DNA from: a virus
UHGV virus genome: UHGV-0109738
Direction: 5' to 3' (one strand)
DNA length: 64,000 bases
Below are positions 45,851 through 52,602 of the stretch, in pieces. Position numbers and translations under genes: made by a program. The notes under the pieces were generated by a model. The model searched no databases. It had not been told where the DNA came from and worked only from the letters and a program-made list of their open reading frames with translations. Within the stretch, counting starts at the first letter, position 1; every line of letters begins with the position of its first letter.

Positions 45851-46306
45851 AGATTTTCCTCCAACAAAGCAAAAACCCGGCGCGGGGCCGGGTAGTTATA
45901 GTTTCGCATTGTTAGAGAATATTTTAATCTGTTTGTTTACGACCTACAAATACGGCGTTACGGCTTTCTATATATCAGGCCATTATCAAGCAATGTTTGC
46001 ATATGCCACCGATCCATGTCGCTTAATTCCCAATAAGGAACATCATCAGGTCTTATCATCACCGATTCACCTCTAACCAAATAGGCGATGTTAAATACCT
46101 TATGTAAATAGATGCCATCTTCGATCTCGTTCATAGGTCGCTAACCTTAAACAGTATGCCTTTATCAACGCCACGCTTAATGTCTTCCCTTGTTGTTTTG
46201 AAGAACGGCTCATATTCCCCACCATCGAAGCTGATTGTTACAGTATCGCCGCCCACTATGTAAAAAACGTTCTCCATCAGGTTTACACCATAGATACCGT
46301 CTTCAA

Positions 46307-46636: not shown

Positions 46637-46948
46637 TTAATCATCCTCTTCATCGTCTTCTTGTTCAGCTAGGAAATCATCGACAGAACAGTAAGTAACT
46701 GGCGGGATATATTCGAAGTCATCCGTATCAAGATCGAGCGTCCTGCTGTCGCCGTCGTCGTCAATCGTATTCATTCCTAACTCACCGAAAGGGCCGTACC
46801 CAATGTGGCCCAGGTATTCGCAACCAATCGCAAACCCAGGGTATTCGCCTTTACACCGGATTTTGTAAAGTTTATTTGATGCGCTCAATTTCCGACCCTC
46901 CACTTTCTGCTTCAGTGATTTTGTATTCTGCCGCCAGTTCAGCGCCAA
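46637..46948 (-). CDS. Hypothetical protein with poly-acidic C-terminus
   Basis: Ends ..DDFLAEQEDDEEDD; N-terminal extent uncertain because it overlaps the next candidate. Confidence 0.3.
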   Translation of the reverse strand: MALNWRQNTKSLKQKVEGRKLSASNKLYKIRCKGEYPGFAIGCEYLGHIGYGPFGELGMNTIDDDGDSRTLDLDTDDFEYIPPVTYCSVDDFLAEQEDDEEDD

Positions 46949-47921: not shown

Positions 47922-48019
47922 TTTTCTACCCTCCGCATCGTTCTCTCTTCAGCTTCTTTATAACAAAATGGCACTGCCGAAACAATGCCATTTCGTAAAC
48001 CTTGTGATACAGATCACAT

Positions 48020-48244
48020 TTACGTTTCTTCCGTAAAAGTAACCTTCATCGCCCCATCCGAACTACGGACAACATAACGACCAATACCGCCTAGCGGCCC
48101 TGCATACCATAAGTGACCGTAAGTGTCAGTTACGACGATAAACGGAAATTTAGGAGACAATCCCATCGGTTTTTCAGCCGTATACTGTGCGCCTTCTTCA
48201 AAACAGCCTAATTTCGATTCGTTACACGTTAAAATCATTTTCAT
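48020..48244 (-). CDS. Small protein, paralogue family member 1
   Basis: Shares F-x-x-G-x-(I/Q)Y ... (I/V)(T/I)D ... G/E-(L/I)W pattern with the three genes upstream. Confidence 0.4.
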   Translation of the reverse strand: MKMILTCNESKLGCFEEGAQYTAEKPMGLSPKFPFIVVTDTYGHLWYAGPLGGIGRYVVRSSDGAMKVTFTEET

Positions 48245-48480
48245 ACCCCTACATACGAAAACGCAGCAAAAGCACCACCACCAGCACGCGCATAAACAAG
48301 TGCCGTGCCATACCCCATCTTATAAAATCGCCATAACTGACCCTGGTCGTCAGTAATGGCATGAATATATTCCTGATCCTTTGCGTCAACCAATGCCGCG
48401 TCAACCTCGTAGATCTTGCCATTCTTAAAAAACGCGCTGCATCGTGAGTATGTGCACTGGTATCTATGTTTCCGATTCAT
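48241..48480 (-). CDS. Small protein, paralogue family member 2
   Basis: FKNGKIYEV..AITDDQGQLWRFY; ATGA overlap with member 1. Confidence 0.4.
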   Translation of the reverse strand: MNRKHRYQCTYSRCSAFFKNGKIYEVDAALVDAKDQEYIHAITDDQGQLWRFYKMGYGTALVYARAGGGAFAAFSYVGV

Positions 48481-48490
48481 AGCACCTCAC

Positions 48491-48784
48491 TTATTCCGGT
48501 TTACTGCCTTCGCGGGCGCAAAACTCCGCGATCTCACGGAAATCATGCACTATGCGATAAATATACAAACCAGCGGCGTTATTGATATGGCTAACATAAG
48601 CGAAATAAACTTTATCATCATCGCCAGTTATCGCCATTGCACCATCACCGCCCGGTGCGCCGTGGAGTTGAACGCCGCAATAGATCTTCCCTTCTTCAAA
48701 AATATTGCGGTCGCGCGTCTGCAATACCTCAAAATATAAATGTTTCATTGTTGCCCCTTTAATAACGTTCAAAGCTGGCAGCAA
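48491..48784 (-). CDS. Small protein, paralogue family member 3
   Basis: FEEGKIYCGV..AITGDDDKVYFAY; likely starts at internal MKHLYF. Confidence 0.4.
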   Translation of the reverse strand: MLPALNVIKGATMKHLYFEVLQTRDRNIFEEGKIYCGVQLHGAPGGDGAMAITGDDDKVYFAYVSHINNAAGLYIYRIVHDFREIAEFCAREGSKPE

Positions 48785-48971
48785 AACCTACACCGGATAT
48801 TTCACCGCCTTCATAGCTCGGCCTGAATACCCATATTTCGTCATGATTATCAATCAAGGCAAGGCAATTACTCATTGTGTGTGCTTCATTGCCATAAACG
48901 ATGTGAACGTCATAAATACTCCCAATCGTGAAAACACTGTCATTGCTTGAGTATGAGCATTTAACTTGCAT
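48759..48971 (-). CDS. Small protein, paralogue family member 4
   Basis: FTIGSIYDV..ALIDNHDEIWVFR. Confidence 0.4.
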   Translation of the reverse strand: MQVKCSYSSNDSVFTIGSIYDVHIVYGNEAHTMSNCLALIDNHDEIWVFRPSYEGGEISGVGFAASFERY

Positions 48972-49216
48972 CAGAAAACCCCTTTATAATCGACCGTGTA
49001 TTTTGCTATCAGATTCCAGTCGCAGTAATTAAGCATGTTGCGAGGCTGCCAGCCTTTCATCCCGACCGCCCGCCGCGCAGCGTGACGGCGATAATCATCG
49101 TTATAGTCAGCTATGCACCACGGCTGGAGAACAAACATATAATTTGCTTCATTAACCAGGATAGCCACCAGCTTTCCTGTTGCCTTGTCTTTTGCCCTGA
49201 AATAATTCACTTTCAT
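48971..49216 (-). CDS. Hypothetical protein (81 aa)
   Basis: Co-directional ORF with start/stop overlap. Confidence 0.3.
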   Translation of the reverse strand: MKVNYFRAKDKATGKLVAILVNEANYMFVLQPWCIADYNDDYRRHAARRAVGMKGWQPRNMLNYCDWNLIAKYTVDYKGVF

Positions 49217-49428
49217 TTTAACACCTCGTCGATCAACATTTCTTCTTCCAGGTTAGCCGGACGTTTACGAAATATCCCGGCAAAAACCAGATCTTCGAGT
49301 AGGTCTTTACGCTTAAATAACCACTCTTTCATTATCACCCCGTCGTTGCTGCGATATACGACGCCGCTTTTCAGAAAATAAAAAGTGCGGCTATTGGTCT
49401 GTAGGTAGAGATCTTCGTAAACGTCCAT
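49213..49428 (-). CDS. Hypothetical protein (71 aa)
   Basis: Co-directional ORF with start/stop overlap. Confidence 0.3.
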   Translation of the reverse strand: MDVYEDLYLQTNSRTFYFLKSGVVYRSNDGVIMKEWLFKRKDLLEDLVFAGIFRKRPANLEEEMLIDEVLK

Positions 49429-51690: not shown

Positions 51691-51880
51691 CCTTCACCTC
51701 GCGACGATAGATTTCTACTGGCTTAACCGGAATAGCGTTAAAATCACCTTCATCCAGTGCGGCAATAAACGTTAGCGCCAACCGTGCTTCAACACCGCTT
51801 AAATACTTGCACCATGCCTCACCGTTATAATCTTTAAAAAGAATAATCACTTTTTTCATGTTTATCTCTTGTTGTTTCAT
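51680..51880 (-). CDS. Hypothetical protein (66 aa)
   Basis: Co-directional ORF. Confidence 0.3.
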   Translation of the reverse strand: MKQQEINMKKVIILFKDYNGEAWCKYLSGVEARLALTFIAALDEGDFNAIPVKPVEIYRREVKDEA

Positions 51881-52602
51881 TATTCACCCCGTGTCACTCG
51901 TTTAATTTCGTTATCAGCCCGCGCCTCTTCTTTGAACAATTCAGTAATGGCGTCTTCATAGAAAGCACGGTATTTCTTCCACCACGTTGATCGGCTTACC
52001 GGAAATACAAGCTGATTAACCGCACGCCGGACAAGATCTACAGGGAAACGCGAGTACCCGCGCCCGCCGCAATGCTGGCACGTTTTGAACGCTGGCATTT
52101 CCGCTGCTTCACTGGCTGCTTTATCCGGTATCTCGCCGCGCCCTTTGCATCGTTTACAATGATTGCGAACTTTTCCATGCCCCTTGCATTTTTTGCAAAG
52201 GTGTTTTTCTCCGTAGTCGTCAAACGTAAATTTATATCCGCCGCAATCCATACAAGTTTTTTCTGTCGCGGCACTCTGGCAGTAATCCCGAAACGCGAAA
52301 ACGGCAACAAGAATAATAAGATCATTGCGTTTGTCCTCGTCCAACTCCATGACGTATTCGTAATCTTTTGCCATAGCTCTTAAACGCTCTGTAAGCAAAA
52401 CTACGGCCCTGTGTTTTTCGGCTTGCGATAATTCCATCTTCCCTAAAAAAGCGCTATAACCAAGCTCTACGCGCGATTGCGCCATACCTGCTGCGGTTAG
52501 TGCATCAGTAGTATTAAGCGAGTCTGGGGACGTGCCCCGGCTTTCATCTGACAAACGCGGTGATTTTGGGAGGTGGAATTTAAGAATAGATTCCAAATTC
52601 AT
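51880..52602 (-). CDS. DnaJ-type zinc-finger protein (possible late-gene antiterminator Q-like regulator)
   Basis: Four CxxCxGxG repeats (CMDCGGYKF, CKKCKGHGKV, CKRCKGRGEI, CQHCGGRGY); downstream of the nin-like genes; assignment as Q is positional inference only. Confidence 0.3.
   Translation of the reverse strand: MNLESILKFHLPKSPRLSDESRGTSPDSLNTTDALTAAGMAQSRVELGYSAFLGKMELSQAEKHRAVVLLTERLRAMAKDYEYVMELDEDKRNDLIILVAVFAFRDYCQSAATEKTCMDCGGYKFTFDDYGEKHLCKKCKGHGKVRNHCKRCKGRGEIPDKAASEAAEMPAFKTCQHCGGRGYSRFPVDLVRRAVNQLVFPVSRSTWWKKYRAFYEDAITELFKEEARADNEIKRVTRGE

What the first reader, a model, noticed from the sequence alone, without database searches (positions are those of the whole stretch)
48020..48971. 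Tandem array of four paralogous small genes
Four consecutive overlapping genes (70-85 aa) share a F-x-x-G-x-IY ... ITD ... LW pattern, indicating serial duplication and diversification. Diversifying tandem families in phage early regions are typical of anti-defence or host-takeover proteins.
Basis: seen in the sequence. Interest (0 to 1): 0.5.

Follow-up and report, generated by a model that had tools for sequence, protein, structure and literature searches.

The report
Tandem Gp54-like small phage genes
Four neighbouring small genes of an E. coli prophage are old, diverged copies of one gene, and two of them are predicted to fold like Gp54 of phage Bas11, the only solved protein with this rare fold, whose own role for the phage is unknown.

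Summary
Window 48020-48971 (minus strand) carries four tightly packed genes of 70-85 aa, each with a ribosome-binding site. A shared composite motif occurs in these four ORFs and in no other of the window's 291 ORFs. Pairwise similarity is significant only for g2-g4. Profiles place g1 and g3 in the same family more weakly. Among orthologues all four are under purifying selection (dN/dS 0.04-0.32).

The window is a prophage of the mEpimmI (mEp021-like) coliphage group. The array lies between the Q-like antiterminator gene and the lysis genes and ends at an intrinsic terminator. It is a cassette of 0-5 copies drawn from at least 8 sequence types, with recombinant chimeras, and was found only in E. 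coli phages of this group.

An anti-defence or host-binding role remains a plausible inference and is untested. Gene-wide "diversifying selection" is not supported.

The parts
48759..48971 (-). g4: first gene of the array in transcription order, 70 aa, family member (phrog_31142-like)
   Evidence: ORF. phrog_31142 E 8e-5. z 6.9 against g2. dN/dS 0.07-0.32. Called as a gene by PGAP in near-identical prophages.
48491..48748 (-). g3: 85 aa, the most divergent member; its C-terminal third differs from the others
48241..48480 (-). g2: 79 aa, the hub of the family and the most conserved among orthologues
48020..48244 (-). g1: last gene of the array, 74 aa (72 aa if it starts at the ATG at 48238)
   Evidence: ORF. 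hhalign against the core family E 5.5e-5 over 68 columns. dN/dS mostly 0.06-0.21. Orthologues are called from MILTC... by PGAP.
47963..47996 (-). Intrinsic terminator-like hairpin about 25 nt after the g1 stop codon, followed by UUUUGUUAU
   Evidence: Inverted repeat I2. RNA fold with a 15-bp stem in the centroid structure, z -3.7, 0/200 shuffles as stable. An ARNold-predicted terminator is annotated directly downstream of the array's last gene in mEp044 and mEp554, and in the corresponding region of mEp010.

Best explanation
The region is a tandem cassette of four anciently duplicated accessory genes of an mEpimmI (mEp021-like) temperate coliphage.

Shown by tools:
- The four genes are coding and under purifying selection.
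- They belong to one sequence family. g2 and g4 join firmly; g1 and g3 join through profiles only.
- The cassette varies between related phages from 0 to 5 copies. The promoter-distal g2-g1 end is mostly constant and the promoter-proximal end is variable.
- g2 and g3 are predicted to fold as six-stranded beta-barrels that superpose on Gp54 of phage Bas11 and on no other solved structure with comparable scores.

Inferred:
- The genes are co-transcribed with the long operon that runs through the Q-like gene, because no gap is large enough for a promoter. Transcription ends or pauses at the hairpin after g1 unless it is antiterminated.
- The products are soluble cytoplasmic proteins. This rests on their negative hydropathy averages and mixed pI of 4.6-9.0; signal peptides and membrane segments were not predicted with a dedicated tool.
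- Each probably acts as a small protein-binding module. It would grip a host partner by beta-sheet augmentation, using the long beta1-beta2 loop that ends in the invariant F-x-x-G motif, as Gp54 grips the CapRelSJ46 antitoxin domain.
- Several diverged copies would give the phage a set of binders with different specificities. The most likely targets are host defence or host-physiology proteins. These same proteins are also candidate triggers for defence sensors.
For: Genes and paralogy.

Purifying selection.

PGAP calls these genes in the prophages examined, and the whole array is present in 9 of 5426 complete E. coli genomes.

Phage group and position between the Q-like gene and the holin; PMC11893012 places flexible genes of this group mainly in its variable regions.

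Copy-number and type variation. Chimeras between types (P0051, P0053).

Properties of Gp54 (66 aa, rare six-stranded barrel, non-essential, binds CapRelSJ46 through beta2-beta5 and a refolded beta1-beta2 loop; G24D is an escape mutation): PMC11578894.

The invariant F18 and G21 of the family fall on F21 and G24 of Gp54 in the (non-significant) profile alignment.

Physical properties.
Against: There are no functional data for this family or for any phage role of Gp54.

Sequence similarity to the Gp54 family is undetectable: hhalign E at least 0.08 and no PF25180 hit. The shared fold could therefore be convergence in a very small domain.

g1 was not modelled.

The g3 model used an alignment that contains the other paralogues, so it is not independent of the g2 model.

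The promoter scan found no more sites than expected by chance, so transcription timing is unknown.

Gene-wide positive selection, which is often seen in arms-race genes, is absent.
Confidence: 0.55

Rival explanations
1. The proteins are expressed from the resident prophage and protect the lysogen, as lysogenic-conversion or superinfection-exclusion 'moron' genes. They would not serve lytic growth.
For: The cassette is flexible, bounded by a terminator and lies in a variable region of a temperate phage. mEpimmI phages are known to carry exclusion functions such as Lpp (PMC11893012).
Against: There is no room for a dedicated promoter: g4 abuts the upstream gene. No promoter-like site lies upstream of the array on the minus strand, and such sites are no more frequent than in shuffled sequence. 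The hydropathy averages are negative, unlike typical exclusion lipoproteins. There is no hit in PADLOC defence models.
Confidence: 0.1
2. They are small SH3/Sm-like nucleic-acid-binding or regulatory proteins that tune phage transcription or translation around the Q-dependent switch.
Against: Most members are acidic or neutral (pI 4.6-6.0; only g2 is basic). The cassette is absent from mEp021 itself and its copy number varies, which does not fit a core regulatory role. No nucleic-acid-binding family matches.
Confidence: 0.08
3. They are minor virion-associated or assembly proteins.
For: The mEp021 homologue of the gene two positions upstream (window 49213-49428) is annotated 'virion structural protein' in GenBank. 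The mEpimmI paper mapped mEp021 virion proteins by mass spectrometry.
Against: mEp021, the phage whose virion was analysed, lacks the array entirely. The genes lie outside the morphogenesis module. Copy number varies between otherwise similar virions.
Confidence: 0.05
4. The resemblance among the four is partly chance. Only g2 and g4 are true paralogues, and g1 and g3 are unrelated small genes that happen to share a short motif.
For: The g1-g3, g1-g4 and g3-g4 pairwise scores are not significant. g1 and g3 do not hit phrog_31142. The profile E-values for g1 and g3 are modest.
Against: All g1 and g3 orthologues rank directly after the family members in the profile search. The g1 alignment to the core is full-length, 68 columns. 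g3 is independently matched to the same rare fold, with 59 residues aligned at 1.7 A. In-register natural chimeras join g1 to other types (P0051, P0053). The composite motif is unique to these four ORFs in the window.
Confidence: 0.07

Closest known systems
Gp54 of Escherichia phage Bas11 (PDB 9AXB; Pfam PF25180 'Phage antiviral trigger protein Gp54'; phrog_7421)
   Different: There is no detectable sequence similarity. Gp54 comes from a virulent T1-like Drexlerviridae phage and is a single copy; its neighbour gene bas11_0053 shows no resemblance to it by eye. The family here sits in temperate mEpimmI phages as tandem arrays of 0-5 copies. Whether any member activates CapRelSJ46 is unknown, and even close Gp54 homologues do not (PMC11578894).
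phrog_31142 and weakly linked PHROG families of unknown function (phrog_4927, 3523, 11067, 2684)
   Same: g2 and g4 match phrog_31142 (E 6e-7 and 8e-5). The g5 type of related phages is a full-length member (E 2.9e-45). The same C...F-x-x-G-x-x-Y...D-x-x-G-x-W module recurs five times in one 438-aa protein of a 34% GC phage-like contig (P0065), which matches phrog_3523, phrog_4927 and phrog_11067.
   Different: g1 and g3 do not match any PHROG. All these families are unannotated, so membership gives no function.
Accessory small-gene blocks of lambdoid phages (the nin region; the moron-bearing stretch between Q and the lysis genes)
   Same: The block is densely packed, made of non-essential small ORFs, and varies between related phages. 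It lies next to the NinG, RusA and Q-type genes and upstream of the holin. The comparison with lambda rests on general knowledge of lambda genome organisation.
   Different: Here about 25 small genes follow the Q-like gene without a visible promoter gap. The phage group is non-lambdoid (PMC11893012). A multi-copy paralogous cassette is not a described feature of the lambda nin region.
SH3-like small beta-barrels

Membership tests
Pfam PF25180 (Gp54, phage antiviral trigger protein) | Sequence match to the family HMM above the gathering score (27 bits) | tested here: not met
   None of g1-g4, g5, g6 or g7 gives a PF25180 hit at E up to 1-10, while Gp54 itself scores 116 bits. Profile-profile E is at least 0.08.
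Pfam PF25180 (Gp54, phage antiviral trigger protein) | Six-stranded beta-barrel with a prominent beta1-beta2 loop (PDB 9AXB) | tested here: met
Pfam PF25180 (Gp54, phage antiviral trigger protein) | Direct binding and activation of CapRelSJ46 | not testable with these tools
   This needs co-expression toxicity or binding assays. Close Gp54 homologues from other phages already fail this test (PMC11578894), so it does not hold across the family.
phrog_31142 (unknown function) | Significant match to the PHROG profile | tested here: inconclusive
   g2 E 6e-7 and g4 E 8e-5 meet it. g1 and g3 give no hit. They join only through a custom profile and hhalign.
Tandem paralogous gene array (serial duplication) | Adjacent, same-strand genes that are homologous to one another | tested here: met
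   Residual in-register DNA similarity remains at the motif positions (repeats D2 and D4).
Known anti-defence proteins | Homology to a characterised inhibitor, or experimental inhibition of a defence system | not tested
   No dedicated anti-defence library was available. Pfam, NCBIfam, PHROGs and PDB sequence searches return no annotated relative. PADLOC, which holds defence proteins and not anti-defence proteins, gives no hit.
Genes under diversifying (positive) selection | dN/dS above 1 among orthologues | tested here: not met
   Pairwise Nei-Gojobori dN/dS is about 0.04-0.32 for every pair with a computable ratio. Site-wise tests were not possible with so few, short sequences. Replacements cluster in segments.

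The most novel reading that the evidence does not exclude
The cassette is a modular, recombining repertoire of Gp54-fold proteins. Each copy would neutralise or decoy a different host immune sensor, for example CapRel-type fused toxin-antitoxins or other sensors with zinc-finger-like domains. The Gp54 fold would then define a widespread superfamily of phage counter-defence binders, undetectable by sequence, that host sensors have in turn learned to recognise.
Probability: 0.2. Interest if true: 0.75.

Novelty: new variant of a known kind. Interest (0 to 1): 0.42.

Why it matters
Gp54 of Bas11 is the only characterised protein with this fold. It is known only as something a bacterial immune protein detects, and what it does for the phage is an open question.

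A second family with the same predicted fold, unrelated to Gp54 by sequence, gives independent material for that question. It comes with natural variants: 0-5 copies, at least 8 types, and chimeras. Several source phages are isolated coliphages with K-12 or plain E. coli hosts (mEp010, mEp013, mEp044, mEp554, MagusPhagus).

The family also supplies candidate triggers or inhibitors to screen against E. coli defence systems.

If nothing comes of that, the finding is an ordinary example of the paralogous small-gene clusters common in phage accessory regions.

Tried and rejected
1. Word-indexed protein searches with g2 and with the family alignment returned only E. coli prophage proteins. tblastn of g2 and g4 against 50,697 phage records found only mEpimmI phages, plus chance hits at E of 5 or more.

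2. The exhaustive profile search of 1.84 billion representatives added large repeat proteins (P0059-P0062, P0066, P0067). These match only 20-40 residues around the 'vvTDxxGxLW' hairpin, repeated many times. I reject them as compositional or motif matches. Only P0065, which contains five complete modules, is accepted as a distant relative.

3. Tests for sequence homology to Gp54 were all negative: single sequence against the profile, a profile of 17 Gp54 homologues against every subgroup, the Pfam model and a PDB sequence search.

4. A pattern search of IMG/VR with the whole alignment failed because no stretch was conserved enough. The g2-only search worked.

5. The promoter scan found fewer sites than shuffled sequence gives, so no promoter is claimed.

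6. A fifth copy at 46637-46948 was considered. It shares F-x-x-G-x-x-Y ... IDDDGD, but the scores are marginal, so it is not counted.

7. Literature searches for protein accessions, the PHROG and the Pfam identifiers found nothing.

Full report
**Observation check**

Four minus-strand ORFs fill 48020-48971:
- g4: 48759-48971, 70 aa.
- g3: 48491-48748, 85 aa from the ATG.
- g2: 48241-48480, 79 aa.
- g1: 48020-48244, 74 aa. The second ATG at 48238 is the better-spaced start and is the one used for orthologues.

Each start has a GGGG/GAGG Shine-Dalgarno-like motif upstream (read). The genes are tightly packed and do not truly overlap: 10-nt spacers separate g4/g3 and g3/g2.

A four-way alignment has invariant F, G and Y in an F-x-x-G-x-x-Y motif, followed by a hydrophobic-T/I-D...G...W/Y segment. 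A regular expression for the composite motif, written after seeing the four sequences, matches exactly these four of 291 ORFs of at least 50 aa in all six frames.

Against 2000 shuffles, g2-g4 is clearly significant (z 6.9). g1-g2 (z 4.2) and g2-g3 (z 3.4) are marginal, and the other three pairs are not significant.

A profile built from g2, g4 and three further types found in related phages ranks every g3 and g1 orthologue directly below its own members (E 0.001-0.04 among 234 ORFs). hhalign gives g1 vs core E 5.5e-5 over 68 columns and g3 vs core E 2.3e-4 over 44 columns.

g2 and g4 both hit phrog_31142. Short in-register DNA repeats remain at the motif positions (D2 and D4).

The four genes are therefore paralogues. 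g2 is the hub, and g1 and g3 are the most diverged.

**Are they genes?**

PGAP annotates genes under the array in near-identical E. coli prophages, although g2 or g4 is left uncalled in a few records. Nei-Gojobori dN/dS among orthologues is about 0.04-0.32 for every pair with a computable ratio, with dS up to about 2.6. This is clear purifying selection and argues against gene-wide diversifying selection.

Within a type, replacements cluster in segments:
- g4: residues 29-52.
- g3: residues 52-62.
- g1: the C-terminal half, in the 'g1b' allele.

This pattern looks like allele or segment exchange.

**Context**

The window is a prophage of the mEpimmI (mEp021-like) group of temperate, Nus-dependent, non-lambdoid coliphages (PMC11893012).

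On the minus strand the order is NinG, RusA, the Q-like antiterminator (51880-52602), about 25 small genes, then holin, endolysin and Rz, followed by large ORFs placed like the annotated terminase genes of mEp021.

The array abuts its upstream neighbour (they share 1 nt at 48971), so it has no promoter of its own. A hairpin with a 15-bp stem followed by UUUUGUUAU lies about 25 nt after the g1 stop (47996-47963; z -3.7). Predicted terminators are annotated directly downstream of the array's last gene in mEp044 and mEp554, and in the corresponding region of mEp010.

A strong terminator lies 12 nt before the holin ribosome-binding site (45893-45875). Promoter-like sites are no more frequent than in shuffled sequence.

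My inference is that the block is read as an extension of the right operon, antiterminated by the N-like protein Gp17. The nutR2 site lies upstream of this block. That would make the array delayed-early. Late expression is not excluded.

**Distribution and dynamics**

Sequence searches found the family only in E. coli (pro)phages of this group, apart from the distant relatives described under 'Wider relatives' below. The whole array is present in 9 of 5426 complete E. coli genomes, and parts of it in 19. Twenty-three IMG/VR viral contigs carry g2, most of them about 47-57 kb and the rest shorter fragments.

mEp021 itself has no copy. Other relatives have 1-5 copies, always at the same place and in a fixed relative order. 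The promoter-distal end is nearly always g2 followed by g1 or its g1b allele. The promoter-proximal end varies among g4-g3, g5, g6 and further types only 37-46% identical to g5. Among the 23 IMG/VR loci there are 11 different architectures.

A seventh type sits upstream of the Q-like gene in mEp044.

Database proteins include in-register chimeras: P0051 joins the N-terminal half of g5 to the C-terminal part of g1b, and P0053 joins the N-terminus of g6 to the body of g1. Deletion fusions to downstream genes also occur.

**Structure**

AlphaFold2 was run without templates, on alignments of family members only.
- g2: pLDDT 84, pTM 0.72, six strands.
- g3: pLDDT 78, six strands in the same order.

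According to PMC11578894, Gp54 of Bas11:
- is a 66-aa protein;
- is non-essential and of unknown function;
- directly binds and activates the fused toxin-antitoxin CapRelSJ46, using beta2-beta5 and a refolded beta1-beta2 loop;
- escapes detection through the mutation G24D.

By sequence the two families are unrelated as far as can be measured: no PF25180 hit and hhalign E at least 0.08 against a profile of 17 Gp54 homologues. However, the family's invariant F18 and G21 fall on F21 and G24 of Gp54, at the end of the long beta1-beta2 loop, in that non-significant alignment.

Foldseek against predicted viral structures returns dozens of uncharacterised small proteins of enterobacterial phages with TM-scores of 0.6-0.8. 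Several of these names I recognise from memory as T1-like phages. The fold therefore seems widespread and unannotated.

**Wider relatives**

P0065 is a 438-aa protein on a 34% GC phage-like contig, lying among small genes between primase-type genes. It consists of five fused copies of the same module (library-wide E 2.6e-4).

Bas11 itself encodes a 121-aa protein (bas11_0048, phrog_2684) that weakly matches the family profile.

These links suggest a diffuse superfamily: phrog_31142, 4927, 3523, 11067 and 2684.

**Mechanism**

The following are shown:
- the genes are real;
- they are paralogous;
- the cassette varies in copy number and type;
- the predicted fold is Gp54-like;
- hydropathy averages are negative and pI is mixed, 4.6-9.0.

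The following is inferred. Each product is probably a small binding module that grips a host protein by beta-sheet augmentation through its beta1-beta2 loop. The set of diverged copies would give several specificities, and the likeliest targets are defence or other host proteins. I put about 0.55 on this overall picture and only about 0.2-0.3 on anti-defence specifically.

The rivals are each unlikely but not excluded:
- protection of the lysogen by prophage-expressed genes;
- regulation through nucleic-acid binding;
- virion association;
- partial chance resemblance among the four.

**Verdict**

The phenomenon, a paralogous small-gene array in a phage accessory region, is ordinary.

The new element is the predicted structural link to the Gp54 fold, in a family unrelated to Gp54 by sequence, organised as a recombining multi-copy cassette. 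I rate it a new variant of a known kind, with interest of about 0.4.

Noticed in passing
window 50-808 (+) and 1586-2422 (+): A TIR-domain protein (PF13676, E 3.6e-18) and a ThsA Macro-domain protein (PF20016, E 3.3e-64) lie about 0.8 kb apart. This looks like a Thoeris-type anti-phage defence pair at the left end of the window, beyond the large phage-like ORFs.
   Followed up: partly
window 46637-46948 (-): This gene (phrog_25234) carries F-x-x-G-x-x-Y ... IDDDGD, resembling the N-terminal half of the family, followed by a very acidic tail. The scores are marginal (7.5 bits; hhalign E 0.0015). A database chimera (P0050) joins the N-terminal half of g6 to this gene's C-terminal half exactly at the MDD(D)G motif. 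It may be a degenerate fifth relative.
   Followed up: partly
window 49213-49428 (-); L006 4716-4964 (mEp021_41): The mEp021 homologue of this small gene, two genes upstream of the array, is annotated 'virion structural protein' in GenBank. The mEpimmI paper mapped mEp021 virion proteins by mass spectrometry. This is unexpected for a gene lying between the Q-like gene and the lysis cassette.
   Followed up: no
window 45875-45893 (-) and 45982-46009 (-): A strong intrinsic terminator (7-bp GC-rich stem followed by a T run) lies 12 nt before the holin ribosome-binding site. A weak promoter-like site lies about 90 nt upstream of it. The layout recalls the lambda pR'-tR' arrangement and is a candidate late promoter and Q target. 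The mEpimmI paper reports a terminator t5 as experimentally demonstrated, but I did not confirm that it is this one.
   Followed up: partly
window 51880-52602 (-): The Q-like 'antitermination protein' contains four CxxCxG-type zinc-finger repeats (read from the translation). These match DnaJ zinc-finger models only weakly (E 5.5e-6). It is directly followed by an overlapping small gene, so there is no room for a promoter immediately after it.
   Followed up: no
L014 2795-4111 (+) (IMG/Logan contig SRR28250973_3107): A 438-aa protein is made of five fused copies of the same module. An upstream 158-aa gene carries another copy. Both are on a 34% GC phage-like contig. The module therefore exists both as separate tandem genes and as intragenic tandem repeats.
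   Followed up: partly
L008 12579-12944 (-) (Bas11 gene bas11_0048): Bas11, the phage that encodes Gp54, also has a 121-aa protein (phrog_2684) that weakly matches the window family profile (E 0.003 among the ORFs of two loci). This may correspond to the 120-135-aa T1-like phage proteins found by Foldseek.
   Followed up: partly
window 12848-13741 (-): A DUF6387 protein (E 3.1e-51) lies in the stretch between the defence-like genes and the large phage-like ORFs. Its function is unknown.
   Followed up: no
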